From assembly GCA_003142795.1 (NCBI GenBank), contig PLNN01000019.1, forward strand, positions 51,991 to 115,990: a DNA stretch of 64,000 nt. Reading direction: 5' to 3'. The position numbers were made by a program, and so were the translations under genes. Each line of letters opens with the position of its first letter. The first letter of the stretch is position 1. This DNA comes from Candidatus Omnitrophota bacterium (GTDB lineage: Bacteria; Omnitrophota; Gorgyraeia; 2-01-FULL-45-10). The notes under the pieces are model-generated. The model was given only the letters and a program-made list of their open reading frames with translations, was not told the DNA's origin and searched no databases. Positions 38,001 to 63,175 of this stretch are shown here, in pieces.

Positions 38001-41000
38001 ATGGTCAAACCATTATCCGGTTTCAGGAACACAATAGTCTGTAAAACCATCTCACTTTTTCTATTACAAGCTTTTCTCTTCTATAACACCTCCTTTGCAT
38101 CCATCGACAAGGCAGCCTCGCAGCCACTTACTAAAGATGTTAAATTTAAACAGGCATCCATTGATGATATAGGCATATCCAAAGACATAGGCACTATAAA
38201 GACGAAATTCAAAGGCAGCGGCGAAAAACTTCTTATCCACATCCAGGACGCCCATTGTAATTACGAAGCCCAGACGAATATCGCGAAGATCCTCGAAACT
38301 CTATCTAAAGATTACAATATTAACACAATATCGGTAGAAGGCGCTGACGGTTTTGTCGATACCGCGTGGTTCAAATCATTTCCGGACGCCGATATCCGCA
38401 AAGAGGTTGCCGACTACTTCATGAAGAAGGGCGAGATAACCGGCGCCGAATTCCTCTCTATTACAAAAGATTATCCGATCAAGCTGTACGGCGCAGAAGA
38501 CCGCGACCTATATATAAAGAACCTCAATGCCTTCACCCAGATCTACCCCCACAAGCAGGAGATAGAAAAATACCTCTTAGGCGTAAAGACCATCCTCGGT
38601 AAGCTTAAATCATACATCTACTCCAAAGACCTGATGAGTTTCGACGCTGTGACCGAAGACTATAAAGATAAGAAGAAGACGCTGTCTGATTACGCTAAGG
38701 TGTTGAGCATCCAGCTGAAACGCCATAATCTGGACCTTAAAGCCTATCCCGATTTCTCAAAGTTAGTCTATACGCTAATCTACGAAGATAAGATCGATTT
38801 CAAGGTCGTCGACCAGGAAAGGGCGAACCTTATAGATGCGATCTCTAAAGCCATTCCGAAAGACAAGCTCCAGGATATGGTGGTAAAAAGCTTCTCTTTC
38901 AAGACGGGCAAGATCACCGCGTCCGAATATTATGAATATTTAAAAACAATCGCCATAGATAACAATATCGATTTTATGAAATTGTATCCGAACCTTTCGA
39001 ACTATGTTATCTATACGAAACTTTACGACAAGATAAACACTGAACATCTCTTTGACGAAATAGACAGGATAAAGATCGCCGTAAAGGATAAGCTTTTCGA
39101 GAACGACGACCAGCGCATTTTAAGTGATGCATGGGATAACGTAAACATCCTCGTGGGATTTATCAACATCAAGTTATCGAATAAGGAATACGATTATTAC
39201 AAGGCCCACAGGGACAGGTTCAAGGTAGAATTTTTCAGTGATTTTATTAAATCCAAAGTCGGCCAATATAATCTCGCCTATAATATAGACGAGCCGACCG
39301 AGAACGTAAAGACGAACATTCCGCAGCTGGAGACATTTTACGAGACGGCTTCCAAGAGGGACAAGGTGCTTGTCGATAATACAGTCGGTTCTATGAAGAA
39401 AGAGAAGGCAAACGTCGCAGTCCTGATAACAGGCGGTTTTCACACTACAGGCATATCGAAGATCCTTGAGGGAATGAACATATCATATATAGTAGTATGC
39501 CCGACCATCACCAAAGACGTCGAATCTCCGTATATCCAGGTCCTCACAAACCAGAAGACACCGTTCGAGGAGATACTGACAGAGAGCGCAACGCCCACGA
39601 AGAAGGATTCACTGCTGGGACCGTATCTACTCGCACGTAAGATCATGATGCGTTTGAACGGTGAGAAGGGTGCAATCAAGGCGCTTCAGGGCGCCGTAAA
39701 CCAGGCCGGCGGAGAAGCCGATCCTGTCGGGGCGATACAGTCGTGGGTGGCGTTCTATGTCGATCGTTATGTAGCCGCGATCAGAAGTGATGAACGGGCA
39801 AATAATAGCACGCCGCAGTCACTCGAAACATTGCGCAATGCCTTCGTTTTAGCGTTTTACAACTCTTTAGACACGCCTCGTATTTCACCGGAAGAGAAGA
39901 AGCAATTCGAACGGGAAACGCCTCCGCTCATAGAAGTGGAATTCAATAAGCTTATCAATACACAGACCGCGTCCGAATCTGCGCCGACGCAGCAGAATAT
40001 TCCCACGATAGTCAGAAAATCGCCTACGGATAATTCTGACGAATTGGATAAAAACGGCTTAAGGAAGCCGGGCGATTCTAGGCGGGACTACCAGAAACCG
40101 GACTCGCTGATACGCAACATCGGTGAAGGACGCGCGGCGGCTGAAAAAGCCATAAAGAATTTTGATATCCAAAGCGATGCCCGTAAGGCTTTGATCAAAA
40201 TTTTTGTTGATAGTTGGACGGCGAGAGGCCCTGAAGCTTTCTCAAAAGATCTGGAACGTTTTCAAGCAGATCCTCTTGGATTTGCACAGGAACAGTTGCA
40301 AAACACGGAAAAGAGACTCACGGCCATCAGACAAAATCTGGATAGAGTAGCATATTCACCAAGTTCTAAAAAAAGGCCTGTTGCGCAAGATTTGAAAAAA
40401 GACTTAGAAAGTGCAATTTGGCTTAAAAACGCTTTAACAAACTTCATTTCGGAACTCGAAAACAAGAACACGGCAGGGGCGGACCATAAAAATACGGTGC
40501 AATCCGTGTCCGAAGCGCGCGCGGCGGCAGAAGCTGCTGTTGCCAAGGCAGGCCATGGCAATATTAAGTATTATTTAGAACCAGTGGACAGAAATCCTGC
40601 ATACAAATTTTTTATCGACTATTTAGTGGGGAAATGGAATAAAAACTCGTCTGTCGAGTTTACGCAAGCATTGGAAAGACTCAACGCATATCCTCTCGAT
40701 ATTTTTGATGAGGTTCAGGCTGCGGCGAAAAAAAATAGCGCAGATGCTATCATTAAATGGACCGGTGTTCATAAATCTACCGAACCTGGAAAACTACCAG
40801 CTCCCATAAGTCCTGAAGAGAAAAACCTGCATGATGCATGGGAGAGGGCAAGCGCTATAGAGGGCCAGTTTAATGGCTACATTCACCATCTCGAACAGGC
40901 AAGCTGGAAGCGCGCCCCGCAATCCATGCCGGTGAGGAAGGGTGCTGGCGATAAGGCGACTGACAGCGGCATATACGGTATGATGGAACTTAACGATGCC

Positions 41001-44000
41001 GAAGTCGCGGCGATGCGCGAAATACAACGCCAAAGTTTCGTGGAAGGAACTTATAGAATAGCCACGGCCAAGGAGCTTGGGTTTACGGAATTGGGCGATT
41101 TCCGGTTTGTCGTGCATTACGGCCTCGAAGCCAGGATAGAGAAATATAATAAAGAGCACGGAACGAACCTTAAGACCGACAGGATCGACGCAGGCACAGG
41201 CGGCGAGGAATACGGTTATGGGCTCAGGCAGGCGCATATAAGCGCATATCGCTTTAATTCTCTGATCAGAACGAAATCCGGCAAAAGAGTGCTGGAAGTA
41301 ATAGCCACTCACGAATCTTTGGGCCACATCGCGATCGCGAATAAAGAAGGCGGCTCAGCTGCCTATAAAATGAAGCTTGCCGACCCGGCCATGAACGAAG
41401 AGGATGTCGTGGACTTTCATGTCCCCGGAGCTAATACAAGATGTGCATACGACTGGCTTCCAGGCAACATTACCATACGGCAGTTATTAGCGCAGATAGA
41501 TGAAAGCCGCAAAAACGATGAATTATACCAGATGGAAGAAGGGCTTCTCACCGATACCGCTTATGGTACAGCCGCTCGTGACGAGATAGTAAGACTGAGA
41601 AAAGAAGGCAAGGATTATGAGGCAGGCGAATTTGCAAAGTTAGTTTACGCAAGAAGAGCCAATATCGACAGGATGAAGAAAGTGCTTACAGAGCCTTATA
41701 AAGATTATGACGTCATCATCATAAGCTCTACAACCGAAGCTGAAGCAAAAGACCAGGAAGCTAATCTCAGGAAAATTTTCGGCGGCATCAAGACATCGAA
41801 CAATGCGATGGGTAACAAGGTGTGCGTCCTCTCTATGCTTGACACTTCGGAAGGTAACAACCTGATAGGGCAAAATGTTACAGAGGCCGAGGCAATAGAG
41901 GCGTTTAAGAAATGGGCAACCGAGAACGGCTTACCGGAAACGGACCTTACTAAGCTCCAGGCCGAAAAAAAGGTAAAAGTGGCAACATATCATAACGGCG
42001 GCAAGGCCGAGAGATTTTCTCCGGCCGGCCAGGCATTGAACCTGTCAAGGGCAGACCAGCTGCTTGTTGGAAGCGTCTTTGACATGAATGGCAAACCTAT
42101 AGAATTAAATCTTCTTTTGACCGTCATTCTATCCACTGCATTTAACGCTGAAACGAACGATGGATCGATGCACGATGTGTATTGGGCGAACCAGGCAGAA
42201 GTTGGCGCAGTGTTGAGTGTGATCAGGCATGGATACGTCTTTAACAAATTTGCAGTTGCGGTGCCGGCAAATCCCAGCATGAAAGACCTGTATGATTACG
42301 GGACGTTGATCGCGACAAAAGATGGCCGTATACTGAAGTTCCTCGGCAATAAGAAACTTACCGAGAAAAATAGTGCCGGCAGGTATATCCCAACCTCAGA
42401 TCCATACTGGCGTGCTAAATATGACGAGCTGATGGAGGCCGCCAAAGAGGGCAGGGCATATTTTGATTACGGTTCATTCAGCATGAGCTTAGATATGCAG
42501 AATGCTCTTCTCGAATATTGGCGCGACGTTAAAAAAATATTTACTGTTATGCAGAATGATGTAAATGGCAGAGCAGGTATATCGCGCGAGATCGATCCTC
42601 AGATGACCCAGAATATTGTTCCGATAGTAAATGGTGTAATGGGCCATGAGGCTGAGCTAAGTCAGCTTCCGACTATCACAGAATTGGATTCAGCTGCTGA
42701 TAAGAACGCGATTTTGCACAAAGCCTATCTTGCATTATTAAATATAATGGCTCCCGAATACAAAACCATATTAGAAGGTCTATATACGAAAGCAAAAGAG
42801 GATTTAGTAAAAAAGGAAAAAAAGGAGCCCGGGAAGAAAGATAACGATCAGAATCTCCAGGCTATATACGAAACGATCGAATTTTTCATCAGATACAAAG
42901 ATACTGTTAATTTAATGAAAGGATTTGGTATAATAGATTTCGGGCCCGGCAGCCATTGGTTCGCATATAAGAGGCTGCTCGATATGGGTAACGAGAAATT
43001 CTTTATGTTGGCCGATATGACCGGGCAGAGCATGGAACTCGAGCCCAATGGTAATGATCTACGTGCGACCGCGACTGTCCAGGATAAGGTAAAGGCTGAA
43101 GATGCCCGCAGGCTAAGGAGTATACCAAACAGCGCTGTCTGCGTATTTGAGGTGAACGGGCAAAAGGTAACGCTTAGCGCCGGGCAGGCGGCTAAAGGGT
43201 GGGAAGGCCATGGCGTTAAAGTAAAGGGCTCTATTATACAAGGGAATACCGTTCTTCTGCCCGGCTCAGAGATCGTAAATAGCGGCGTCAATAATTCCCA
43301 GGGCCGGATAGCGGCTGCAAATTCATATATAGATTCATCGACCGCCCCGAAAATAGAGGCTAAGAATAGCATTGTAGTAAACGGCGTTGATGGAAAACTT
43401 ATTATCGCGAATAGCGAAATTGTAACCGACGCGTTCAGGCCGGTTATACATGACGACAGGTTCGCGGACGGGCATACGAGGATGCGAGCGCCCGTAGGAT
43501 ACGATCCTAAGCCGGGCGATGAAGCCCTGGCGGCCAAAATGTCGGATGCCGTCAGGTTCGGCGATAACAAATATTCATTTGAGGAGATCAGGAATATGTC
43601 GTGCGACAAGGACGCGAACAAGGCGATCGAGAAGACGGCAAGAGATAGTGTACATGCGAGGCTCCAAATGATATCCGAACGCTGCAAATATTGTATAGAT
43701 CATTTCAAGCTGTTGAAATTCGGAACAAGCGGATTGAGAGACAATGACTCCGCTCTTACCGATATGGAGGTATATATAAACGTCCGCGGCCTTGTGAGAT
43801 ATCTTACCGGCATCAACTCGAGGATGGACGTGCCGGACCATATTAAGAAACTGGTATATGAAGGAGCTATTCAAAAATTGTCCGACATAGTGCTTGCAGG
43901 AGATCTCAGGCCGTCCACCCCCCGGATTTTAAAAGCAGTCGCAGTTGGTATAGTAGCGGAAGGCGGCGCGCCTGTATATATAGGAAAACAGCCAACGCCC

Positions 44001-47000
44001 CTGCAAGTTCTCTACTCATTGAAGAAATCAATGGCAGGATTCATGACTACAGGCAGTCATATCCCGCTCGGTATGAACGGCCTTAAAGGTAACAGGCCAA
44101 ACGGTGAGTTGTTAAAACAAGAAGAGAAACTCATCCTGACGGAAGTCGCCAAAGTGAGAAACGGGGAATATCTTCAAACCGATGCCGAAAGCATGTTCGA
44201 TAGGAACGGATTTTTCAGGACGGACGGCAAGATTTCCGGAAACCAGCGCAATATCATTTCGAAAGCCGAAGAAGCCCTTGATCCGGAGAATCCGAATAGA
44301 CGCGAAGCGGAGAAACTATACGAAGACCGTTATTTAGGCGGTCTGGGAAGGTGCCTCGAGGGCGTCGACGTTCTCTTCTGGCAGCATTCTGCGGTTGGCC
44401 GCGATATCATTCCCGATATTATGAGAAAGATGGGAGCCAACATTACGACCGTTGCGCCTCTCGATGTGAGTAAAGGCGAATTCTGCTCACTAGATACGGA
44501 AGATGTTAAGCCGCAATTCAAGCAGCTGGTAAAGAAATTGATGCAAGATAATAATAAGAAGGTCCTTATCACAACCGATGGCGATTCCGATAGGCCCGCC
44601 GTATTTATACTGGCGAAGAATCCTTTTAAGAATGGCGAGGAAGACGTTTATTATTTAACCGGAGATAAGCTCGCTATAATTACGGCGTTGTTATTGAAGC
44701 CCAAGTTCTTTGCGATACCGGTTACGTCAAACCATATAGCTCTGCAGAAATTACGTGATGCGGTCCCCGGCATTAAAATAGAGCTTACAGATGTAGGCTC
44801 TCCTTATATTGCCGAGGCTATGTATGCGAATAACGAAGGCGATCAGGCCAATGGCTGCGAGGTCAATGGAGGATATTTCATAGGGTCTCAGGTATTCAGG
44901 ATGCCCGAAGAAACAATAGCGAAAATAAGGGCATTGAACAGGAGCTCCTCTTCTCCGCTCGCTGAGCCCACCGGCGAATTTTCATATCTTCCTTCGCGGG
45001 ACGCGTCAATCGCGTTAATAAGCATACTGCTTTCGGCGAAACTGAAGAATATGACGGTCGAGGAGTTGATAAGGGACACGTTCAGCGGAAAATACGCGGC
45101 TGAGACATCGGCCGGGCTCGTTGAGAACGTATCCGATAAGCAGCGCACGCCCGGATGCGAAGATTACCAGAAAGAGATGGGACCTGCAATAGCGAAGAAC
45201 CTTTCTCCGAAAAACGCAAATATACTCGAGGTGATATTTGAGGGAGATGAAGTAAGGTATGTGCTTAAAGACGATGCCTCAGGAAAAAAACGCGATGCCG
45301 ACAAGCCGTTGAAGGCAGAGGCATTGGCTATAAAGTCACGGCTTGAGGCGAGATTGAAAACTATAGCCGGCTTGCAGGGCCAAAATATCGTACAGATCAA
45401 TTTTAAAAACGGCGTTCGTGTATTCTGGTCGAACAGGGAAACTATACATTTACGAGCGTCCAGCAACGCGGCGCAGTTCAGGGGATATACCCTGGCACCC
45501 GGCGAGATGTTCGATCCCCGGCCGGAGCAGATGGTTGAAGAGATGACCGCGCCAAGCACCGGGCCGCTCGTTAAAATAATTCAAGATTATATAAATGAAA
45601 CTACCGGCAAAGCTGTCTCTACTGCCGCGGCATCGGCCTCGTCTTCCAGGAAATCGCCCGGCAGGTTCGCGACATCGGCAGACGCGCCGCAGGGCGGACA
45701 CTTGCGCGAGCTAGTTGCTATCGGTACAAAATACTCGCTTGATTCGGTCGATCCCGACCTGATAGATAGAGAGATCGCCAACGGAGCCACCAGTGCTACG
45801 TCTAATCCTATTATAATATCGAACCTTGTCAAAAAAGTGCTTGCGAATATCGAGAAGAACGGCGGTCCGCAGACTGAATTCGAGAAAGGAATTTATTCGA
45901 TCCTCGCAAAATCTCCCAATGAGGAAGTCGCGACCAGAGAAGCGACCAAATTTATCATAGGTTTCGTCGCGGCAAAATTCAGGCCCGTTTATGACAGAAC
46001 AAGCAAGAATGACGGATATGTAAGCATTGAAGTCGATCCTCGGCTAGAGGACACGAAAGAAGGCCCGTATGCAACATGGACGCATGAAGAGCGGGTGGCC
46101 GAAGTTAAGCGTCAAGCCGTCGAATTCAGCAAGATCGCGCCTAATATCCTGATAAAGATACCTGCTACTAAAGCCGGACTTGACGCCCTGGAAGATCTCG
46201 CCTATCAAGGCATAAACCTTAACGTTACTCTTATATTTACGCCTGAACAGGCTTATGCGGCAAGAGAGAATGTATGGAAAGGCCTCCAAAGAAGAAAAGC
46301 TGAAGGGAAGTCCTTAGACATAAAGAGTGTTTATAGCATCTTTGTCAGCCGGACCGATGATTATACGGCTAAGAAAGCCCCGGATCTGCCTTCAAATGTT
46401 CAGGGAGAGATTGGAATATACATCGCGAAGCTCATATATCTTCAGAATAAAGAATTCTGGCAGGATAAAGGACTTTCCTTGAGCCAGGAAATGATATTTG
46501 CTTCTACCGGCAGTAAATCAAAATTGGTAGCCGGGATCAAGACCGAAGCGGATGTTTTAAAACTAGTCGAATTAGCGACATCCGGATCCAAGGAAGCAGA
46601 AGATGCGATGAATGCATTAAAAGAAATGTGTAGATATGTCTATGAACTTGCAGGAGACGATATTCAGACCAATCCGCCCCTGACAGCATTTGCCGTGAAT
46701 GTCGCACCATTTGCGATAACCGAAAAAAGAGTAGGTGCATTACCTGCTTCCGAAGTTCGGAAGATAATGATACAATATTTAGATTCTCACATGCAGGAAC
46801 TTTATGAGGCACTAATGACTGATGGCATTGCGAAATTCGTGAATCCGCAAGTTGAGTTGGTAAAGAACGTTGCAGCGGCTATGGCAAAAATTCCGAGATC
46901 GCCTGCCGCAACTCCGGAGAATATCGTGAAAACGCTCGTAGATAATCGTAATCCTCAGGCTGCTGTGGCCGGCATATTCGATAATCGCCAGGAGAGTGAA

Positions 47001-50000
47001 TATCTGCCTGCCCTGAGTGCAGTCGCTAATGAATTGAATAAGCGCTACGCAACTCTTACGTCCGATCAGAGGGATGAGCTTTGGCCGGTATTAGAAGAGT
47101 TTTATTCTACCCTGACCAGACGAGCGTGGAGCACCGTAAATGACGTAAATATAGCACGCGGCCTTCAGATAATGACCGGCAATACCATTGCCATTCAGAA
47201 TCTGATCGAGATAGGCCTGAGCGGAGCAAAGAGTATACAACTTACCGATAAGGCCGACGAGATGTTGAAAGCCGAAGATAAAGATAGAGGGCCAAGCTAC
47301 ATTAAAGCTTTTTCTATTCCTAAATCAATAGGCATTGCCGAAAGCGAAGGCCGCCCGGGTGTTTATTGGAGAGGCGCCGAAGGCATTACAAAACTGGGAC
47401 CCAATGGCGAAAATATATTGCCGTGGGCCGCATACGCAGCGAATCAGCATGATGAATATAAGAAATTCATAGGTTATACTATGCTTCATGTGAGCGATTT
47501 TCACGTTACTGTGTTTGTAAATCAATTTCTTCCAAATTCGATCCAATATACGAGCACGGGCGCAGGCCACTATCAGGGAGATAAACTTGATGTAAAAGTT
47601 GTTACAAGAGGTGCCCTTCGCCAGATGCAGGACGTATATAATGCAACCGGCAATCGGACAACAACGACAGCGCAGGATGCAGGAAAAGGTAGATGGGTAT
47701 TTGCATCTCCGCGCACAGTCGACTATACCGTTCCGCTTAGGCCAATAACGGTATTCAATGATGAAAGCATATTACCGCTGGGTACAAATATGCGCGCAAT
47801 CGGACCTGAAACAGTGCAGGTTGCTCCTTACGCGACTATTGATTTCAATGGTAAGCCTGTATTGGTCAAAGCTGTCAGCGACGCTCCCGTGTTAACGCAA
47901 CTGGAATCATATCCCGACCGTAGCGCCGTCCTGACTAGAGCGCCGGTACAAATAGCAGAATCGGAAAGGGTAACTGTTTTGGATGCGAACACAGTAACAG
48001 CTATAGGAAGGTTGAATGATCTTATCGAATCCGGACACCCGCTTAATATCACATCAACATATAATTTAGGAAAGAACGGTTACAAGTGGGGCGAGCCAGC
48101 CGGAGTGAGTTTCATAATCGGGCTTGAAAGTAATACTCTGCCAGCCGTCCTGCAGGAAGCCATCAGCACCAAAGACCGCGTTGCCGAAAGATTGATAGCC
48201 GCAGGCGTGATAGACTTGGGTGAAGGCTATAGCCTTCCGACGAGCGTATTGTCATCGTATTTTGGCCAGGAGCCTGAAATTACAACTAAGGTGCTTGCTT
48301 CAGCGATGCCTCTGTCTGTGCAACTGCATACTTTTGCCGAGATGATAATCCCTCTCGAAAAAGGGACTGCATGGATAGGGGTCAAAGAGAATGTCACAGC
48401 CGAACAATTAATAGAAGCGGCTAAAGAAGGCAGGATCCAGGATGTTCTGCAGGAAGTTGAGCTTGAGACGGGAGTGCCGATGATCGTTCCTGCTTATCTG
48501 CCGCATGCTTACGGAAAAGTGAGGGTCTATGAGGTTAAGGCAGTTACGCCTCAAGAAGACGCTACCGGCACAACCTCATTCTTTGACAGGCTGAAATATT
48601 TAAGCCCTGAATTTGAAGCTCAATTGAAGGCTTTGAACATTACATCGTTACAGATGACTCCGGAGCAGTTAAGACAGCTCAATCCCGGAAGAGAGAAGAA
48701 AGACGTTCTTACGATGCCTGAAGCAACTTTGGCCGAGACGAAGAAACGATTGGCTGAGGCCGAAAGCTCAGGCGCTTTGAATAAAACGAATATCGAGAAT
48801 TTGAAGTTTACACCGGTCATTGTGAGCGCGCCATCCATGAAGAATACCGAAGAGGCGAGGCTTGAGGTAATGGGCGTGGCAGAAGGACGTTTTATAACGG
48901 TCCGTTATACGGTTGCGGAGAATCAGTCGATCCAGTCGGGCCCGATTCTATCCGGCAGAAAGCACACGCTTTTTGTATCAGAAGGCGAGATCGAATTAAA
49001 TACCGATCAGGGCGTTACTACAACATTGAAAAGAGGCCAGGATATAACTGTGACGCCTAATATGCAGTATTACACCATCAGGTCACTGAAAGGCACGGCC
49101 GTTATTTATACACAGGTTCCGCCGAAGAAAGAATTGCCCGCAACTGAAACCGCGAGGCTTGCAGCGCAGATCAATAATAATCAGAAAAGCCTGAAGGCTG
49201 CCGTATCGAAAGGAAGAGAGGTCATTCTCGCCCCGAACGACAGGACCTCCGAAAGATTATCTGTTACAAGCAGCGCGAAACAGGATATCCCGCAGGCGAA
49301 AGAGAAAGAGGTGGCCTTATCGCTCGAAGACGGCAAAGCGGCTATCGTTAAAGAGAATGGCGATACGGTAGAATTAAAGCCTGGTAATCCCATAATCGTT
49401 CCGGCAGGCATGCCGTTATCGATACAGTCACCGGTTGTGGCGATAGTGAAAATTGCTTATACGGAATCTCGTGAAGAGAGCGCTTCATTTACGTCCATTA
49501 ATGTCACAAAGCGTAATCTCGCGGCGATCACAGCCACAGGTAAGATAGACCTGCTGGTTAACGACAGCCTTTACCAGAAGGACGGCGACTATGCCAATTC
49601 TGTCGCAAAAGAGCAGGAATTCTGGAAGGGGTTGAACGTCGACGTCGTATTGGTAAAATATAGCGATGAGCTTGGATTGAGCGACGCGGCCGATAAGTCG
49701 ATCAGGAACGGCGCTATTCCCATTTTGGTCGGAACGGCAGAAAATTTCCAGAAGGCGGATGTTTCTGATCCAAAGATAGCGAAATTGTTGTTGAAGGCAA
49801 AGATATTGCCTCCAATCGATCTGGCGAAGATAGAAGGTCGCCGCGGCTGGTTCTTTACAAGAGAAATAGAAGCCAGCGCGATCCTTTTGGCTGCTACAAC
49901 CGTCCAGAATATACGAGATCATGATCCGATAGCGGAAGACCTGCAGAAATTGATGCAGAAATTCGGTTTGCCGATAGACGACATCAACCAGCTCTTATGC

Positions 50001-50177
50001 ACGATGTCTTTCGAGGAATTGCAGAAGCTGGGAAGCGATTTCCTCGATGCGAATGGCATGCCTAGCCTGTTAGCGAAGATAGAACTGGTAAAACGGCTAT
50101 TGATAACGCTGCCTGCTAAACCATTCAATGCCGACGACGATCTTCACAGGCGCCGCGAAGTTCTCTGGAGCGTGTAA
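38001..50177 (+). CDS. Giant secreted multidomain protein (4058 aa): N-terminal conserved domain, NTP-transferase-like motif, LbH, phosphohexomutase domain, transaldolase domain and cupin-like segments
   Basis: Uninterrupted ORF with a strong RBS (aaggagag, 6-nt spacer, ATG 38001). The N-terminal signal-peptide-like segment is [22 protein letters not shown]. The embedded enzyme domains are listed as separate features. Confidence 0.85.
   Translation: [4058 protein letters not shown]
38225..39515 (+). other. Conserved N-terminal domain, paralogue of ORF2 28415-29700
   Basis: See the ORF2 domain feature. Protein identity across the domain is about 30-35% by eye. Confidence 0.35.
41987..42031 (+). 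other. Degenerate NTP-transferase glycine-rich motif ([15 protein letters not shown]) in ORF3
   Basis: Aligns with ORF2 IIAGGKGTRFSPGG but has GKAER in place of GxGTR. Confidence 0.3.
43200..43440 (+). other. Hexapeptide-repeat (LbH) segment in ORF3
   Basis: [70 protein letters not shown]. Confidence 0.4.
43700..45520 (+). other. Complete alpha-D-phosphohexomutase (PGM/PMM superfamily) domain embedded in ORF3
   Basis: It has the N-terminal [10 protein letters not shown] motif, the catalytic-serine loop [11 protein letters not shown] (equivalent to TASHNP), the metal loop TTDGDSDRP (DGDxDR) and the phosphate-binding loop [15 protein letters not shown] (RxSGTEPxxRxY-like). It is collinear with the free-standing paralogue at 58964-60622. 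Confidence 0.8.
45700..46560 (+). other. Complete transaldolase-family domain embedded in ORF3
   Basis: It is collinear with E. coli TalB. [13 protein letters not shown] aligns with [28 protein letters not shown] aligns with [57 protein letters not shown] aligns with [40 protein letters not shown], with the Schiff-base Lys conserved. [11 protein letters not shown] aligns with ISPFVGRILDW. Confidence 0.8.
48900..49450 (+). other. Cupin-like segments in ORF3, possibly mannose-6-phosphate isomerase type II-like
   Basis: [57 protein letters not shown] and [34 protein letters not shown] have the G(X)5HXH...E...G...P.G..H...N shape. No strict motif was verified. Confidence 0.3.
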
Positions 50178-50196
50178 TCTATACGAGGTTATAACT

Positions 50197-52500: not shown

Positions 52501-53529
52501 ATGAAGACACTCAGATCTGGCATCATTGGATGCGGCACCATCTTTCCGATGCACGCCCAATCGATCAAGAATATAAAAGAAGCACGGCTTGTCGCCGTAT
52601 GCGACATTAAAAAAGACCGCGCAAGGGATAAAGCTAAAAAGTATGCCTGCGCCGGTTATACCGATTACAAAAAGATGTTCGCCGAAACACATCTCGACGT
52701 AGTCCATATCTGCACTCCTCATTACCTTCACATGCCGATGATCATCGAAGCGGCCAAACGGAAAATAAACGTAATAAGCGAAAAGCCGATGGCCCTCAAC
52801 CCGGAACAGGCCAAAAAAGAGATCGCGGCAGCAAAAAAGAATAAAATTACTTTTGGTGTAATATTCCAGAACAGGTTCAATCCCGGCTCGCAGCTTGTAA
52901 AAAGCAGGATAGACGACAAAAGTCTTGGTAAATTAAAAGCCGCGAAACTCGTTCTCACATATCATAAACCGGACAGTTATTATAAGAAGAGCGACTGGAA
53001 GGGCAGGCTCAACAAAGAGGGCGGCGGCGTAGTAATTGACCAGGCCATTCATTACCTGGATATAGTCCGATGGCTTATCCCAAGCCCCATCGGCTATGTC
53101 GAAGCGAAATGCTCGAACCGCATGCACACATTTACGGATGTCGAAGACTCAGCCGAGGGCATAGTTAAATTCAAGAACGGATTTTACCTGTGTTTCTACC
53201 TGATCAATTGTTATTCATTCGATGACGATCCTTTTATCGACATCGATTGCGAAAAGGCAAGGGTTCACATAGTCAAAGACTCGGCTTACATAGGATACAA
53301 GAACGGCAGGAACGAGAAGGCTGAGCCCGGAGCGGATGAATATATAGATTATGGCGACGGAGTAAGGGATTACTGGGGTTATTGCCACTTTAACGAGATA
53401 CGCGAGTTCTATCGCTCATTGGCTGCAGGTAAGAAGCCCGCCGTAACCGCGGAAGACGCTAAAAAGACACAGGACCTCATATGGGCTATATATGAATCGT
53501 CCAAACGCGGCAAAAAAATATATCTATAA
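52501..53529 (+). CDS. Gfo/Idh/MocA family NAD(P)-dependent oxidoreductase
   Basis: N-terminal Rossmann motif GIIGCGTIFPMHAQ, the EKP motif (ISEKPMAL), and a C-terminal alpha/beta dimerisation region typical of the family. Confidence 0.85.
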   Translation: MKTLRSGIIGCGTIFPMHAQSIKNIKEARLVAVCDIKKDRARDKAKKYACAGYTDYKKMFAETHLDVVHICTPHYLHMPMIIEAAKRKINVISEKPMALNPEQAKKEIAAAKKNKITFGVIFQNRFNPGSQLVKSRIDDKSLGKLKAAKLVLTYHKPDSYYKKSDWKGRLNKEGGGVVIDQAIHYLDIVRWLIPSPIGYVEAKCSNRMHTFTDVEDSAEGIVKFKNGFYLCFYLINCYSFDDDPFIDIDCEKARVHIVKDSAYIGYKNGRNEKAEPGADEYIDYGDGVRDYWGYCHFNEIREFYRSLAAGKKPAVTAEDAKKTQDLIWAIYESSKRGKKIYL

Positions 53530-53538
53530 AATAAGATT

Positions 53539-53580
53539 TTGATTTTTTAGTATGATTTTAGTATAATAATCATACTTTTT
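53539..53580 (+). promoter_or_regulatory. Near-consensus sigma-70 promoter (TTGATT-17-TATAAT) overlapping an inverted repeat and T-tract (agtatgatt/aatcatact, then tttt)
   Basis: The -35 TTGATT is at 53539-53544 and the -10 TATAAT at 53562-53567, with an exact 17-bp spacer. The -10 sits in the loop of a 9-bp AT-rich inverted repeat (53549-53576) followed by TTTT. This could act as a promoter for 53619, a weak terminator for 52501, or both. Confidence 0.45.
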
Positions 53581-53618
53581 GTTAGATTAGAACCAAAATT
53601 TTAGAAAGGGAAACAGCA

Positions 53619-54656
53619 ATGGCAGTAAGGATCGGAATTATCGGCTGCGGGAAGATAGCTGATAGGGCAAGTTTACCGAATCTGGTGAACTATAGGGGGA
53701 AAGCGGAAGTAAAGGTATTGTGTGATGTCGATGTGTCAAAAGCTAAGGCTCTGAAAGATAAATTCGAACTATGCGGCGCCGATGTGGTAAAGGACTGGAA
53801 GAAGCTCATTACCAGAAAAGACATCGACGCTGTTTTTGTCGATACTCCAAATTATTTACATGAGGAGATGACGGTAGGGGCCGCGGAAAATAAGAAGCAT
53901 ATCCTTGTGGAAAAACCTATAGCTATAACGGTCAAGAGTGCCGATAAAATGATAAAAGCCGCCAAATCTAACGGCGTCTATCTTATGGTCGAGCAGACGC
54001 ACAGGTTCAATCCCATTCATCAGGCGGCGAAGAAGGTCCTTGAATCGGGGATGCTCGGGAAGATACATAATATAAGAGGCAGGATCGGGCATGCCGGCCC
54101 GGAATACTGGTCTGAGGGCAAGGCTCACTGGTTCTACGACAAGAAGAGATCCGGCGGCGGCGCCATGGTAGATATAGGCGTGCACATCACAGACCTCATC
54201 AGATGGTTCGCGGCTAAGCCGATCACTGAAGTATTTGCTACGATAAGGACTATCGAAAAGGGCGTAAAGGTTGACGACAACGCGACGGTACTATTAAAAT
54301 TCGAGGACGGCTCAAAGGGCGAGATAGAATGCAGCTGGACGACAAGGCCGTATGAGGTCATGACGTTCGCTTACGGCACAAAAGGCAAGATGATGACAAA
54401 CCTCGGCGCTGATAAACCGATCAAAGTGGTCATAGCCAATACGAATAAAGGTGAAGATCCGAACTGTACCCTCGAAGAATTATATCCTGAGGTCGGACCG
54501 GGCGGCGACTGGGAAAATTCAGTCCATTACTTTGTAGATTGCCTGGTTAAGGGCGAGCGGCCATCCGTTTCGGGCGAAGAAGGCCGTGAGACGATCCGCA
54601 TTATCAGCTCAGCGTATGAGTCGAATGAATCGGGAAAGTGGGTAAAAATAAAATGA
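53619..54656 (+). CDS. Gfo/Idh/MocA family oxidoreductase
   Basis: RBS aaaggga upstream. Motifs are IGIIGCGKIADRA and VEKPIAI, followed by the conserved HRFNP region. Confidence 0.85.
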   Translation: MAVRIGIIGCGKIADRASLPNLVNYRGKAEVKVLCDVDVSKAKALKDKFELCGADVVKDWKKLITRKDIDAVFVDTPNYLHEEMTVGAAENKKHILVEKPIAITVKSADKMIKAAKSNGVYLMVEQTHRFNPIHQAAKKVLESGMLGKIHNIRGRIGHAGPEYWSEGKAHWFYDKKRSGGGAMVDIGVHITDLIRWFAAKPITEVFATIRTIEKGVKVDDNATVLLKFEDGSKGEIECSWTTRPYEVMTFAYGTKGKMMTNLGADKPIKVVIANTNKGEDPNCTLEELYPEVGPGGDWENSVHYFVDCLVKGERPSVSGEEGRETIRIISSAYESNESGKWVKIK

Positions 54657-55468
54657 AGCTCGGGCTTTGCACTTGGTCATACAACAGGACATTTGCCGCA
54701 AGAAAAATGGACCTGGAAAAACTGATGCACGTATGCGCGGATGATCTGAAAGTGGGCGGCATGGATATAATCGACGTTCATTTTAAGTCAGGTGACCCCG
54801 CCGTTCTTTTGAAAGACATGGATTATCTCTTAAAGATAAAAAGATTAGCGACGGACCTCGCGATAACGATATCGGCAGTCTCGCCTGGAAACAGCTTTGG
54901 CAAGGATAAGGAGTCCGATGAGAAGGCGGAAGTAGAAAAGATAAACAAATGGACCGATGTGGCCTATGTCCTCGGCTCGCCGAACTTAAGGATATTCGCA
55001 GGATGGGCGCCAAAAGAGAGACACGAAGAGCTTTGGCCGAAGGTCGTGAAGAGCATTAAAGAGTGCGCCGCTTATTCGGCGAAAAAAGGCATTACGCTCG
55101 CGATCGAATCTCACAACGGCGGCGGATACCTTCCGACGTCGATAGAGACTCACAAGCTGCTCAATGACGTGAATTCTCCCTGGGTTAAGCTGAATCTTGA
55201 TACAGGAAATTACCAGGACCCGGATATGTATGACGCCCTGAAAAGATCCATGCCTTATACAACACACATGCACTGCAAGATCCATGAGCTTTCGAAAGAT
55301 GGCAAAGAGCTGCAGTTCGATTTCGATAAGATATTCAAGATACTAAAGGAAACAAATTACCGCGGTTTCTTCAACGTAGAATACGAAGGCAAGGAAGAAG
55401 AATTGTCCTATGTTCCGATCGCGTTCGCGATGGTGCGGCAGTTCATGAAAAAATACGAGGTATTCTGA
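54653..55468 (+). CDS. Sugar phosphate isomerase/epimerase (xylose-isomerase-like TIM barrel)
   Basis: The start ATG at 54653 overlaps the upstream stop (ATGA), indicating translational coupling. The upstream in-frame ATG at 54638 is rejected. MKLGLCTWSYNRTF and the E/H metal-ligand pattern (ESHNGG...DTGN...EYEG) are typical of AP-endonuclease-2/XylA-like TIM barrels. Confidence 0.75.
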   Translation: MKLGLCTWSYNRTFAARKMDLEKLMHVCADDLKVGGMDIIDVHFKSGDPAVLLKDMDYLLKIKRLATDLAITISAVSPGNSFGKDKESDEKAEVEKINKWTDVAYVLGSPNLRIFAGWAPKERHEELWPKVVKSIKECAAYSAKKGITLAIESHNGGGYLPTSIETHKLLNDVNSPWVKLNLDTGNYQDPDMYDALKRSMPYTTHMHCKIHELSKDGKELQFDFDKIFKILKETNYRGFFNVEYEGKEEELSYVPIAFAMVRQFMKKYEVF

Positions 55469-55499
55469 GATATAGGGACCGGTAGCCAGAGGATAACGG

Positions 55500-56411
55500 A
55501 TGAAAAAAAAGCGCGGATTTTTCGCAAAGCTTAACGAGCAGAAGTGGTCATTCCTTTTTATAGCGCCCGCCGTGCTTCTGTTCGTCATATTCGTATTGGG
55601 CCCATTGGTCGCTTCCCTGTACTGGTCATTCACGGAATATAACGGCATCACCGCTCCGAAATGGGTAGGCCTGGCCAATTACAAGAACATATTCTTTAAC
55701 GATCCGCGTTTTTGGACGTCCATCCGGAATACGGTATTTTACACCGTAGGCATAATTCCAGCGGGAGTTATCTTATCACTGCTCCTGGCAATGGCCATTG
55801 ACCAGCGCATAAGGTTCAAGAATTTTTTCATGGTCATATATTTCATCCCGTCGGTAACATCGGTCATAGCGCTCTCAGTAATATGGAAATGGCTCTTCGC
55901 CGGAGAGAAATACGGGCTCATCAATTACTTTTTGATATCGATCGGCCTGAAGCCGATAGACTGGCTGATGAGTCCTATCTGGACGCTGCCCGCTATCATT
56001 ATAATGTCGATCTGGGCCGGCATAGGATACAACATGATACTCTTCCTGGCGGGCCTGCAGACCATTCCCACGAGTGTATATGAGGCGGCCGACATTGACG
56101 GCGCGAATACCTGGGAGAAATTCTGCAACATAACGCTCCCTCTCTTAAAGCCGACGATGGTCTTTGTAGTCATAATGGGCTTCATAGCGTCATTCCAGGT
56201 CTTTGAACGTATATATATAATGACCGAATCGGAATTCGGCATAGGAGGCGTGCTCGATTCCGCGCTCACGGTAGTCGCGTACTTGTACGACATGGGCTTC
56301 AGGAAACTCCAGATGGGCTATGCCTCGGCGCTCGGTTACATAATCTTCATGGTAATATTCGTGATCACATTGATAAACCTGAGATTCATAAAGGCAAAGG
56401 TCGACTATTAG
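55500..56411 (+). CDS. Carbohydrate ABC transporter permease (MalF/UgpA-type)
   Basis: Six predicted TM helices and the EAA loop YEAADIDGANTWEKFCNITLPLLKP. Confidence 0.85.
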   Translation: MKKKRGFFAKLNEQKWSFLFIAPAVLLFVIFVLGPLVASLYWSFTEYNGITAPKWVGLANYKNIFFNDPRFWTSIRNTVFYTVGIIPAGVILSLLLAMAIDQRIRFKNFFMVIYFIPSVTSVIALSVIWKWLFAGEKYGLINYFLISIGLKPIDWLMSPIWTLPAIIIMSIWAGIGYNMILFLAGLQTIPTSVYEAADIDGANTWEKFCNITLPLLKPTMVFVVIMGFIASFQVFERIYIMTESEFGIGGVLDSALTVVAYLYDMGFRKLQMGYASALGYIIFMVIFVITLINLRFIKAKVDY

Positions 56412-56423
56412 TAAGCCCCTTCA

Positions 56424-56452
56424 TTGACAGGCAGTTATGGAAGTGCTATAAT
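56424..56452 (+). promoter_or_regulatory. Consensus sigma-70 promoter with extended -10 (TTGACA-17-TGcTATAAT) upstream of the GH130 gene
   Basis: TTGACA 56424-56429, TATAAT 56447-56452, exact 17-bp spacer, TG at 56444-56445. RBS agagagga precedes ATG 56511. Confidence 0.7.
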
Positions 56453-56510
56453 TTCCATCTATTTATATAAAATATAACTGATAAACAATACACACAAAGA
56501 GAGGAAAATA

Positions 56511-57455: not shown

Positions 57456-57493
57456 AGCTTAAAAGCGCAAAAAATAAAAAGGAGAGAACACCA

Positions 57494-61467: not shown

Positions 61468-61504
61468 GCCTGGTGCCTAATAAATAGGAGATAAGGAAAA
61501 TAAA

Positions 61505-63157: not shown

Positions 63158-63175
63158 TACCACCCCCGCGCAATT

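What the first reader, a model, noticed from the sequence alone, without database searches (positions are those of the whole stretch)
43700..45520. Complete phosphohexomutase domain inside ORF3 with a free-standing paralogue 14 kb downstream
All four alpha-D-phosphohexomutase signature loops are present inside ORF3: FGTSGLRD, TGSHIP with the catalytic Ser, DGDSDR and the R-x-S-G-x-x-P-x-F-R phosphate loop. The separate 552-aa gene at 58964-60622 begins with the same ELKFGTSGLRD and ends with the same SHLRPSGNAPEFRNY. This gives natural domain boundaries, and it suggests that one copy derived from the other through a gene-to-domain capture or release event.
Basis: seen in the sequence. Interest (0 to 1): 0.75.

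Follow-up and report, generated by a model that had tools for sequence, protein, structure and literature searches.

The report
Phosphomannomutase module in giant protein
A complete, probably active sugar-phosphate mutase domain does sit inside a 4,058-residue protein, but it is a long-standing module of a widespread family of giant multi-enzyme proteins in Omnitrophota-type bacteria, and it is only a distant cousin of the free-standing copy 14 kb downstream.

Summary
ORF3 (38001-50177) has a full alpha-D-phosphohexomutase domain at aa ~1900-2515. The 552-aa gene at 58964-60622 is a full-length homologue (30% identity, E 1e-68). One misquote: ORF3's phosphate loop reads RASSNAAQFR, not R-x-S-G-x-x-P-x-F-R.

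The interpretation, that one copy derived from the other, is not supported for this pair. Both belong to the 4HJH-like phosphomannomutase (PMM) subfamily but to different clades.
- The embedded copy groups (87-97% bootstrap) with PMM domains embedded at the same position in homologous 2.2-3.9-kaa proteins from other genomes.
- The free copy groups (100%) with 77-83% identical free-standing orthologues in a syntenic mannan-utilisation operon (GH113, GH130, MFS).
- In a 254-sequence sample, the free copy ranks 173rd of 253 among the embedded copy's neighbours, and the embedded copy ranks 241st of 253 among the free copy's.
- A second genome (L001) carries the same two lineages side by side.

ORF3 belongs to a large family with a fixed module order: signal-like peptide, ChaN/Ere/TIKI-like head, PMM, PMI-like cupins and a conserved C-terminal tail. 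ORF3 also has a rare transaldolase insertion. The catalytic residues are invariant in 43 of 43 embedded homologues, apart from one Gly at the first Mg ligand. PGM/PMM domains in Omnitrophota giant proteins are already reported in two preprints, so this is a new member of a known kind.

The parts
38001..50177 (+). ORF3, a 4058-aa multi-module protein. It belongs to a family of 2.2-3.9-kaa proteins with the order head, PMM, PMI-like region, tail.
   Evidence: ORF list and translation. Collinear homologues: L001 3059 aa, L002 at least 2659 aa, L004. About 35 cluster representatives have the same module order.
38001..38102 (+). N-terminal signal-peptide-like segment (MVKPLSGFRNTIVCKTISLFLLQAFLFYNTSFA|S). 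There are no other hydrophobic segments of membrane-spanning type in ORF3.
   Evidence: Kyte-Doolittle scan. The same pattern ...YN(V/I/T)SFA occurs in about 20 family members. No signal-peptide predictor was available, so cleavage is inferred.
38148..39590 (+). Head module (aa ~50-530), with no real Pfam match. It has a ChaN/erythromycin-esterase/TIKI/TraB-like alpha/beta core with a ~300-aa helical insert.
41643..43670 (+). Module of unknown function (aa ~1215-1890) with a GGKAERFSP motif and a beta-helix-like C-terminal part. It occupies the position where relatives carry a Pfam NTP_transferase.
   Evidence: Five free-standing homologues of 543-717 aa, none with a Pfam hit. AF2 model poor, pLDDT 57. 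Foldseek gives only weak left-handed beta-helix, GlmU and AGPase matches, E >= 0.1. hhalign matches only the GG-x-ER-x-SP motif. No PDB hit. L001 and P0247 have NTP_transferase there.
43698..45545 (+). Embedded alpha-D-phosphohexomutase (PMM-type) domain, aa ~1900-2515. It contains Ser2019, Asp2193/2195/2197, Glu2287 and Arg2485/Ser2487/Asn2489/Arg2494.
45735..46886 (+). Transaldolase domain (aa 2579-2962) with the Schiff-base lysine motif IKIPAT (aa 2718-2723). It is an insertion relative to most family members.
   Evidence: Pfam TAL_FSA E 4.8e-36. PDB transaldolases 7bbw and 3clm, E 1e-15, with IKIPAT aligned to IKVPAT. Absent from L001. Only 1 of 60 large relatives has any TAL match.
46908..47930 (+). 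Module of unknown function (aa ~2970-3310), shared with some family members.
   Evidence: phmmer matches in P0256, P0259, P0263, P0336, P0339, P0340 and P0348. No Pfam hit.
47928..49490 (+). Phosphomannose-isomerase-like region plus cupin domains (aa ~3310-3830), with SVQLH (aa 3439-3443) and PHAYG (aa 3501-3505).
   Evidence: hhalign against the PMI half of PMM-PMI fusion proteins: probability 97.9%, E 3.4e-13, 288 columns. The family profile hits PDB 1zx5, a putative mannose-phosphate isomerase, at E 1.4e-6 and type I PMIs at E 0.14. Pfam MPI_cupin_dom E 2e-5 and Cupin_2 E 4.5e-6 on the sub-sequence, both below gathering score.
49488..50174 (+). C-terminal tail module (aa ~3830-4058) ending in the family-wide motif ...LPAKPFNADDDLHRRREVLWSV.
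   Evidence: Matches in about 30 family representatives. The terminal motif is aligned.
58964..60622 (+). Free-standing 552-aa phosphomannomutase, standard type of the same subfamily.
   Evidence: Pfam domains I-IV. 4hjh E 5.3e-68. Orthologues at 77-83% identity. Conserved operon position.
52501..63841 (+). Mannan/mannoside-utilisation operon around the free PMM: two GFO/IDH/MocA oxidoreductases, a xylose-isomerase-like TIM barrel, ABC permeases, GH130 mannoside phosphorylase (56511-57455), an MFS sugar transporter (57494-58963), the PMM, GH113 mannanase (61505-63157) and a response regulator.
   Evidence: Pfam. Gene-for-gene synteny in L006 around the 83%-identical orthologue P0103.

Best explanation
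The two phosphomannomutase (PMM) copies are ancient paralogues with separate roles. They are not a donor and recipient pair.

The embedded copy:
- It is a conserved, catalytically intact module of a large family of secretion-signal-bearing multi-enzyme proteins, mostly labelled Omnitrophota.
- The fixed module order is: signal-like peptide, ChaN/Ere/TIKI-like head, variable middle, PMM, PMI-like cupin region, conserved C-terminal tail.
- The PMM and the PMI-like region together are homologous to the common two-domain PMM-PMI fusion enzymes. The module therefore most likely entered the family once, long ago, as a PMM-PMI cassette.
- ORF3 later gained a transaldolase and another module between the two halves.

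Inferred mechanism for the embedded copy: it interconverts mannose-6-phosphate and mannose-1-phosphate through its phosphoserine and Mg2+ site. It sits beside an isomerase-like domain (fructose-6-P to mannose-6-P) and a transaldolase that makes fructose-6-P. In some relatives a sugar-1-P nucleotidylyltransferase would make NDP-mannose.

The free copy is the PMM of a mannan-catabolic operon. GH113 cuts mannan, transporters import the oligosaccharides, and GH130 phosphorolysis releases mannose-1-phosphate. The free PMM then converts that to mannose-6-phosphate.

Shown: homology, phylogenetic separation, conserved architecture, conserved catalytic residues and operon synteny. Inferred: substrate (mannose rather than glucose), enzymatic activity, the channelling role and cellular location.
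For: Domain and residues:
- Full-length homology, E 1e-68.
- Ser, the second and third Mg-binding Asp, the sugar-loop Glu/Asn and Arg2198/Arg2333 are invariant in 43/43 giant-embedded homologues. The first Mg ligand is Asp in 42 (one Gly). The phosphate-loop residues are present in 39-40, with most of the remainder alignment gaps.

Separate lineages:
- Identity and bit-score tables.
- NJ bootstrap: 97.5% and 87% for the embedded clade, 100% for the free clade.
- Clade-specific sugar loop: GCEVNGG-x-FIG with one extra residue in the embedded clade, against (W/F)E(S/A)NGG-x-L in the standard type.
- Neighbour ranks 173/253 and 241/253.
- No DNA similarity beyond the motif patches.
- The L001 four-way comparison pairs like with like.
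- In L004 the giant's PMM is only 33-56% identical to the neighbouring PMM-PMI gene.

Family architecture:
- L001, L002 and L004.
- 60 of the best 150 representatives are at least 1300 aa, and about 35 have head, PMM and tail in the same order.

PMM-PMI cassette: hhalign probability 97.9%. P0011, in the embedded clade, is PMM followed directly by PMI.

Free-copy role: GH130, GH113, MFS and ABC genes surround it, with identical synteny in L006. GH130 mannoside phosphorylases release alpha-mannose-1-phosphate (established knowledge of the family).

Organism: relatives are named Omnitrophota/Omnitrophica in NCBI records.
Against: - The trees are distance-based NJ only, because no ML program was available. 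Deep nodes are unresolved (bootstrap below 20%), so the order of capture and release events at family level is unknown. Giant-embedded PMMs are not recovered as one clade.
- The embedded clade sits on a long branch. Its grouping with 600-650-aa Pacearchaeota-type PMMs drops from 98% to 58% with more taxa.
- Mannose specificity rests on context only.
- Pfam does not score domains III and IV of the embedded copy. Its phosphate loop has Gly to Ser and Pro to Ala changes.
- An N-terminal signal-like peptide implies export, which fits poorly with sugar-phosphate metabolism.
- The nucleotidyltransferase step is not demonstrable in ORF3 itself.
Confidence: 0.82

Rival explanations
1. One reading: a recent gene-to-domain capture or domain release within this genome, so that the 58964 gene and the ORF3 domain are donor and recipient.
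For: They belong to the same subfamily, share the best PDB hit 4hjh, have the same four loops and similar length, and lie 14 kb apart on the same strand.
Against: - 30% identity, with no DNA similarity outside two motif patches, and a GC3 difference.
- More than 170 sampled proteins are closer to the embedded copy than the free copy is.
- Well-supported separate clades.
- Both lineages are already separate in L001 and L004.
- The free copy's operon is conserved in L006, where the giant gene immediately upstream carries ROK, Fe-ADH and SIS domains and no PMM. Only 10 kb upstream was examined.
Confidence: 0.03
2. The embedded domain is a degenerate pseudo-enzyme that serves as a scaffold or sugar-phosphate-binding module.
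For: - Pfam scores are weaker than for the free copy, and domains III and IV go undetected.
- The phosphate loop is altered to RASSNAAQFR.
- It sits on a long branch, carries insertions in domains III and IV, and lies in a protein with a secretion-type N-terminus.
Against: - The phosphoserine, His, Lys, the second and third Mg Asp, Glu/Asn of the sugar loop and Arg2333 are present in 43/43 giant-embedded homologues. The first Mg ligand is Asp in 42 of 43. Arg, Ser, Asn and Arg of the phosphate loop are present in 39-40, with most of the remainder alignment gaps. This pattern indicates purifying selection on catalysis.
- Ala at the Pro position of the phosphate loop also occurs in the solved enzyme 4hjh (RASGNAPELR).
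Confidence: 0.1
3. ORF3 is an artefact: a mis-assembled contig or a read-through of separate operon genes. In that case the 'embedded' PMM would really be a normal gene.
For: - Every module tested in the protein-database searches also exists as a free-standing protein elsewhere: head ~500-550 aa, the aa 1215-1890 module as 543-717-aa proteins, and PMM and PMM-PMI genes.
- In L004 the homologous gene is split into four gene calls.
Against: - ORF3 is a 12,177-nt open frame with no stop.
- Independent assemblies show the same order in single ORFs of 2.2-3.9 kaa, with the same N-terminal start and the same C-terminal ...WSV end.
- The L004 splits are overlapping frame changes in a contig of 2.27x coverage.
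Confidence: 0.03

Closest known systems
Brucella melitensis phosphomannomutase, PDB 4hjh (alpha-D-phosphohexomutase superfamily)
   Same: It is the best solved-structure match of both copies (E 5.3e-68 for the free copy, 2.8e-35 for the embedded copy). It shares the LKFGTSGLR start, TGSHIP, DGD(A/S)DRP, E-x-NGG and R-x-SGNAPE-x-R loops.
   Different: 4hjh is 481 aa. Both window copies carry an extra ~40-70 aa between domains I and II. The embedded copy has further insertions in domains III and IV and a changed phosphate loop.
Two-domain PMM-PMI fusion proteins of ~940-960 aa, common in Omnitrophota metagenomes (for example P0034, P0049, P0061)
   Same: The order is the same: PMM, then a type-I-like phosphomannose isomerase and cupin. 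ORF3 aa 3335-3706 aligns with their PMI half (probability 97.9%, E 3.4e-13). Their PMM halves belong to the same subfamily.
   Different: In ORF3 the two halves are separated by ~800 aa (transaldolase plus an unknown module) and lie inside a 4058-aa protein with head and tail modules. The PMM halves of the fusions cluster with the free copy, not the embedded one.
Multi-enzyme giant proteins of Omnitrophota (West-Roberts et al. 2023, bioRxiv 10.1101/2023.11.21.568195; 'multi-enzyme metabolic clusters' in bioRxiv 10.64898/2026.06.07.730766)
   Same: - Both preprints report PGM/PMM and other sugar-phosphate enzyme domains inside very long Omnitrophota proteins. They also report HEAT, TPR and methyltransferase content, as in ORF1.
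- They raise the same puzzle: a signal peptide on a protein full of cytoplasmic-type enzymes.
   Different: - Those surveys set thresholds of at least 10 or 30 kaa. ORF3 (4.1 kaa), ORF2 (3.2 kaa) and ORF1 (9.3 kaa) fall below them.
- In the passages I read, neither paper describes the head-PMM-PMI-tail family, its C-terminal motif or the phylogeny of the embedded PMM.
GH130-based mannan catabolic loci (mannoside phosphorylase pathway known from Bacteroides and Ruminococcus; recalled knowledge, not tested here)
   Same: The free copy sits between an MFS sugar transporter and an ABC permease, next to GH130 and GH113 genes. GH130 produces mannose-1-phosphate, which needs a PMM.
   Different: No separate PMI gene is present in the operon within the window. 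The PMM is of the long 4HJH-like type.

Membership tests
alpha-D-phosphohexomutase superfamily (embedded copy) | Phosphoserine loop T-(A/G)-S-H-x-P in domain I | tested here: met
   TGSHIP aa 2017-2022, Ser2019. Ser is present in 43/43 embedded homologues.
alpha-D-phosphohexomutase superfamily (embedded copy) | Metal-binding loop D-x-D-x-D-R in domain II | tested here: met
   DGDSDR aa 2193-2198. The motif is invariant across the 122 aligned family sequences.
alpha-D-phosphohexomutase superfamily (embedded copy) | Sugar-binding loop with a conserved Glu in domain III | tested here: met
   EVNGG aa 2287-2291. E, N, G and G are invariant in the family.
alpha-D-phosphohexomutase superfamily (embedded copy) | Phosphate-binding loop R-x-S-x-(N/T)...R in domain IV | tested here: met
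   RASSNAAQFR aa 2485-2494. Arg, Ser, Asn and Arg are kept. The Gly and Pro of the subfamily consensus are replaced.
alpha-D-phosphohexomutase superfamily (embedded copy) | Four-domain architecture I-IV | tested here: met
   Pfam scores only domain I above its cut-off and domain II just below it. The end-to-end alignment with the free copy, which has domains I-IV in Pfam, and with 4hjh covers all four. No structure of this domain was predicted.
alpha-D-phosphohexomutase superfamily (embedded copy) | Mutase activity through a phospho-enzyme and a bisphosphate intermediate | not testable with these tools
   Needs an enzyme assay.
Phosphomannomutase (substrate-specific assignment, both copies) | Preference for mannose-1-P/mannose-6-P | not testable with these tools
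   Context only: GH130 and GH113 neighbours for the free copy, fusion with PMI in relatives, and a PMI-like region in ORF3. NCBIfam scores are far below every equivalog cut-off.
Recent in-genome paralogue pair (capture or release between these two loci) | The two copies are each other's closest relatives | tested here: not met
Recent in-genome paralogue pair (capture or release between these two loci) | Residual nucleotide similarity and similar codon composition | tested here: not met
   Only 26-29-nt matches at two motif sites. GC3 is 0.54 against 0.40.
Head-PMM-PMI-tail giant protein family (defined here) | N-terminal signal-like peptide plus head module, PMM at ~aa 1400-1900 or later, C-terminal tail ending ...RR-x-V-(M/L)-WSV | tested here: met
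   ORF3 matches L001, L002, L004 and about 35 representatives in the same order.
Omnitrophota 'giant protein' classes of the two preprints | Length at least 10 kaa (2026 preprint) or at least 30 kaa (2023 preprint) | tested here: not met
   ORF3 is 4058 aa, ORF2 3231 aa and ORF1 9252 aa. The domain content is of the same kind, but these proteins fall below the surveys' thresholds.
ChaN / erythromycin esterase / TIKI / TraB superfamily (head module) | Shared alpha/beta core with paired His motifs and a Glu | tested here: inconclusive
   [not shown]

The most novel reading that the evidence does not exclude
ORF3-type proteins would be exported through their conserved N-terminal signal-like peptide and sorted by the conserved C-terminal ...KPF...RR-x-V-x-WSV tail. 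A working fructose-6-P to mannose-6-P to mannose-1-P (to NDP-mannose) enzyme line would then operate outside the cytoplasm, for example in the periplasm, at the cell surface or inside a prey or host cell. The ChaN/Ere/TIKI-like head could act as a hydrolase that anchors or processes the polyprotein. This would be a new kind of extracytoplasmic sugar-activation machine in a putatively predatory or epibiotic phylum.
Probability: 0.12. Interest if true: 0.8.

Novelty: new member of a known kind. Interest (0 to 1): 0.38.

Why it matters
The case shows that a striking same-window pair, an embedded domain plus a free gene, can be a coincidence of two old lineages and not a snapshot of domain capture.

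The follow-up also delimits a large, unnamed family of ~3-kaa multi-enzyme proteins with a fixed module order, intact catalytic sites, a secretion-type N-terminus and a conserved C-terminal motif. At ~3 kaa these are far more tractable for expression and localisation experiments than the 30-150-kaa Omnitrophota giants. They could be used to test whether the metabolic domains of such proteins act inside or outside the cell, a question both preprints leave open.

Tried and rejected
- BLAST and phmmer of ORF3 regions outside the PMM against the first 120 PMM hits found nothing. A profile-profile comparison was needed to link the PMI-like region.
- Pfam on ORF3 sub-sequences gave no credible hit for aa 560-1900 or aa 2950-3400.
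- Module aa 1331-1900: the AF2 model was poor (pLDDT 57). This was partly because I cut the module ~115 aa short at its N-terminus. Foldseek gave only non-significant beta-helix, GlmU and AGPase matches.
- hhalign of that module against the NTP_transferase regions of L001 and P0247 matched only a 14-residue GG-x-ER-x-SP motif, probability 1.3%. A profile search of the PDB found nothing. I therefore do not claim a nucleotidyltransferase in ORF3.
- A single-sequence PDB search of the ORF3 C-terminal third found nothing.
- The window's own genome was not found among the GTDB species representatives. The organism is inferred from relatives' names only.
- Assembly artefact was considered and rejected (see rivals).
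- Grouping of the embedded clade with Pacearchaeota PMMs as evidence of cross-domain transfer was considered, then left open because support fell from 98% to 58%.
- The metagenome contig scan was not used, because the representative search already gave enough family members.

Full report
**Layout of the window**

All large ORFs are on the + strand.
- ORF1: 157-27915, 9252 aa.
- ORF2: 28147-37842, 3231 aa.
- ORF3: 38001-50177, 4058 aa.
- A 772-aa ORF follows, and then a run of ordinary-sized genes.

Pfam annotates the downstream run as a mannan/mannoside-utilisation operon. It holds two GFO/IDH/MocA oxidoreductases, a xylose-isomerase-like TIM barrel and ABC permeases. It also holds a GH130 mannoside phosphorylase (56511-57455), an MFS sugar transporter (57494-58963), the 552-aa phosphohexomutase (58964-60622), a GH113 mannanase (61505-63157) and a response regulator.

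ORF1 carries CofD, TPR, HEAT and methyltransferase domains. ORF2 carries an ARMT1-like phosphatase domain.

**The observation**

ORF3 contains the following motifs.
- FGTSGLRD: aa 1907-1914.
- TGSHIP: aa 2017-2022.
- DGDSDR: aa 2193-2198.
- EVNGG: aa 2287-2291.
- RASSNAAQFR: aa 2485-2494.

Further support:
- Pfam scores PGM_PMM domain I at E 1.9e-9. Domain II reaches E 1.8e-6 at 28.8 bits, just under its 29.3-bit gathering score.
- The best solved relative is the Brucella phosphomannomutase 4hjh, E 2.8e-35.
- The free-standing protein matches domains I-III above threshold and domain IV weakly. It hits 4hjh at E 5.3e-68.
- The two window copies align end to end: 30% identity, 221 bits, E 1e-68.

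The only faults are in quotation. ORF3's phosphate loop lacks the Gly and Pro of the quoted pattern, and the terminal strings are similar, not identical.

**Is the embedded copy intact?**

In a 122-sequence family alignment, nearly every column that is at least 85% conserved is kept in ORF3. This includes the phosphoserine, His, the NG-x-K segment, the DGDSDRP loop, E-x-NGG and the R-D pair of domain III. It also includes Arg, Ser, Asn and Arg of the phosphate loop.

Across 43 PMM domains embedded in homologous giant proteins:
- Ser, His, Lys, the second and third Mg-binding Asp, Arg, Glu, Asn and Arg2333 are present in 43/43.
- The first Mg ligand is Asp in 42 and Gly in one.
- The phosphate-loop residues are present in 39-40, and most of the rest are alignment gaps.

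This is the pattern of an enzyme under purifying selection, not of a decaying scaffold.

**Are the two copies each other's closest relatives?** No.

1. *Database hits.* A word-indexed search with the embedded domain found 2,436 relatives.
   - Its best matches are a 440-aa fragment (P0001, 49%) and an Omnitrophota fragment with PMM followed by PMI and cupin (P0011, 43%).
   - Next come 580-650-aa proteins at 35-36%, two of them labelled Pacearchaeota.
   - Scored against the same 120 proteins, the free copy has orthologues at 77-83% identity: P0086, P0087, P0096, P0103, P0109 and P0115.
   - It is also 43-48% identical to more than 60 proteins, including ~945-aa PMM-PMI fusions.
2. *Small NJ tree.* It has 127 sequences, 543 columns and 200 replicates, and is rooted on 1wqa.
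   - {embedded copy, L001 giant PMM, P0001, P0011} has 97.5% support.
   - {free copy plus six orthologues} has 100%.
   - The smallest clade holding both window copies has 103 members.
3. *Large NJ tree.* With 254 sequences from the exhaustive representative search, the embedded copy falls in an 8-member clade of giant-protein PMMs (87%). The free copy falls in a 9-member clade (100%). Deep nodes are unresolved.
4. *Neighbour ranks.* By identity on trimmed columns, the free copy is 173rd of 253 neighbours of the embedded copy. The embedded copy is 241st of 253 neighbours of the free copy.
5. *Clade-specific sugar loop.* The embedded clade shares GCEVNGG-x-FIG with an extra residue. The standard type has (W/F)E(S/A)NGG-x-L.
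6. *DNA.* The two regions share only 26-29-nt patches at the FGTSGLRD and TGSHIP sites. GC3 is 0.54 against 0.40.

**Independent genomes**

- *L001.* A scan of GTDB species representatives found L001, labelled Planctomycetia.
  - It has a 3059-aa ORF homologous to ORF3: 44% identity over the N-terminal 580 aa, 39-41% over the PMM and 27% over the C-terminal 876 aa.
  - The next gene encodes a 1233-aa protein whose PMM is 44% identical to the window's free copy and is followed by a PMI domain.
  - In the four-way comparison, embedded pairs with embedded (423 bits) and free with standard (436 bits). The cross pairs score 235-259 bits.
  - The split between the two lineages therefore predates the divergence of these organisms.
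- *L004.* This locus shows the same neighbourhood: a giant gene, fragmented by frameshifts at 2.27x coverage, and a PMM-PMI gene one gene downstream. The two PMMs there are only 33-56% identical.
- *L006.* This locus carries the 83%-identical orthologue of the free copy in a gene-for-gene syntenic operon. The giant gene immediately upstream is a different one, with ROK, Fe-ADH and SIS domains. The free copy therefore travels with the mannan operon, not with ORF3.

**What ORF3 is**

An exhaustive HMMER search of 1.84 billion cluster representatives gave 937 hits at E <= 1e-3.
- Of the best 150, 60 are at least 1300 aa long.
- About 35 of those contain ORF3's N-terminal module, a PMM at roughly aa 1400-1900, and ORF3's C-terminal module, in that order.
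- Many also contain the aa 1331-1900 module and the PMI/cupin region.

ORF3 is therefore one member of a populous family of 2.2-3.9-kaa proteins. Its main modules:

- **Signal-like peptide.** Family members begin with a positively charged stretch, a 12-15-residue hydrophobic stretch and ...YN(V/I/T)SFA. ORF3 has no other hydrophobic segment of membrane-spanning type.
- **C-terminal tail.** Members end with a well-conserved ...MP(I/V)KPF(D/N)....L..RR.V(M/L)WSV carboxy-terminus.
- **Head module (aa ~50-530).**
  - It has no credible Pfam match.
  - It has 179 homologues, mostly Omnitrophota, many of them free-standing ~500-550-aa proteins.
  - It models confidently, pLDDT 88.8.
  - That is the ChaN/erythromycin-esterase/TIKI/TraB superfamily, with invariant D-x-H, E and GGFH motifs.
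  - ORF2 starts with a paralogous head.
- **PMI-like region.**
  - ORF3 aa 3335-3706 is homologous to the PMI half of PMM-PMI fusion proteins (hhalign probability 97.9%, E 3.4e-13).
  - SVQLH aligns to SVQFH and PHAYG to LHALG.
  - A family profile hits a putative archaeal mannose-phosphate isomerase, 1zx5, E 1.4e-6.
- **Transaldolase (aa 2579-2962).** It is bona fide: Pfam E 4.8e-36, and the lysine motif IKIPAT aligns with solved transaldolases. It is an insertion: L001 lacks it, and only one of 60 large relatives has any TAL match.
- **Module aa ~1215-1890.** It stays unassigned. L001 and P0247 carry a Pfam NTP_transferase at the equivalent position.

**Most likely function**

*Shown:*
- two old PMM lineages;
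- an intact catalytic apparatus in the embedded one;
- a PMM...PMI cassette inside a conserved giant protein;
- a catabolic operon around the free copy.

*Inferred:*
- The free copy converts the mannose-1-phosphate released by GH130 phosphorolysis into mannose-6-phosphate.
- The embedded copy works within ORF3 next to an isomerase-like domain and a transaldolase, linking fructose-6-P, mannose-6-P and mannose-1-P.
- In relatives with a nucleotidyltransferase this would continue to NDP-mannose.

Where this happens is open. The conserved signal-like N-terminus argues for export, which is odd for sugar-phosphate enzymes. West-Roberts et al. raise the same puzzle, as does the 2026 preprint.

**Comparison with what is known**

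- PGM/PMM, triosephosphate isomerase, glucose-phosphate isomerase, FBPase and aldolase domains in giant Omnitrophota proteins were noted in bioRxiv 10.1101/2023.11.21.568195.
- bioRxiv 10.64898/2026.06.07.730766 counts PGM/PMM Pfam domains in 88, 65 and 64 long proteins and defines a 'multi-enzyme metabolic cluster' class.
- The presence of such a domain is therefore known.
- In the passages I read, neither paper describes the ~3-kaa head-PMM-PMI-tail family, its termini or the phylogenetic separation shown here.

I rate the finding a new member of a known kind, of moderate interest.

**Limits**

- The trees are NJ with Kimura-corrected distances, not ML.
- Deep branching order and the number of capture or release events are unresolved.
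- Substrate, activity and location are inferred.
- The source organism is inferred from the labels of relatives.

Noticed in passing
[not shown]
   Followed up: partly
window 50100-50174 (ORF3 C-terminus); also the ORF2 end ~37750-37839 and the ORF4 end ~52350-52443: The family ends in a strongly conserved motif...MP(I/V)KPF(D/N)....L..RR.V(M/L)WSV-COOH, seen in about 20 members. ORF2 and ORF4 end with loosely similar P-(R/I)-...D-...-R-... tails. It may be a sorting or assembly signal. I know of no match.
   Followed up: no
window 45735-46886: A transaldolase domain with an intact lysine motif is inserted between the PMM and the PMI-like region of ORF3. L001 lacks it, and only 1 of 60 large relatives has any TAL match.
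   Followed up: partly
window 50128-52446 (772-aa ORF4): - The last 208 aa are 75% identical to the C-terminus of a 3134-aa ROK/Fe-ADH/SIS giant protein that precedes the syntenic mannan operon in L006. The rest does not match. ORF4 may be a remnant or variant of another giant gene.
- The listed start overlaps ORF3 by 50 nt. A start at Met25 (nt 50200) would give a signal-peptide-like N-terminus.
   Followed up: partly
window 41643-43670 (ORF3 aa ~1215-1890): This module has a GGKAERFSP motif and a beta-helix-like C-terminal part. It has five free-standing homologues of 543-717 aa and no Pfam or PDB match. Relatives L001 and P0247 carry a Pfam NTP_transferase at the same position.
   Followed up: partly
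L001 14783-18484; L004 18758-20085: In two other genomes a standard-type PMM-PMI gene lies next to, or one gene after, the ORF3-like giant gene. The pairing of an embedded and a separate PMM therefore recurs, although the two are always divergent, at 32-56% identity.
   Followed up: partly
proteins P0002-P0010 (two labelled Candidatus Pacearchaeota): Free-standing 580-650-aa PMMs, some from DPANN archaea, group with the giant-embedded clade: 98% bootstrap in the 127-sequence tree but 58% in the 254-sequence tree. This could be cross-domain transfer or long-branch attraction.
   Followed up: partly
L005 1-21494: In another genome a free-standing head-module gene (497 aa) lies between a 6624-aa giant gene (methyltransferase, FAD-binding and succinate-dehydrogenase flavoprotein domains) and large fusion genes carrying FBPase_3 and PPDK domains. 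The head module seems to be generally linked to clusters of fused central-carbon enzymes.
   Followed up: no
window 157-27915 (ORF1) and 28147-37842 (ORF2): ORF1 (9252 aa) has CofD, TPR, HEAT and methyltransferase domains in its first half and no Pfam match at all in its last 4652 aa. ORF2 (3231 aa) has only an ARMT1-like damage-control phosphatase domain besides the head module.
   Followed up: no
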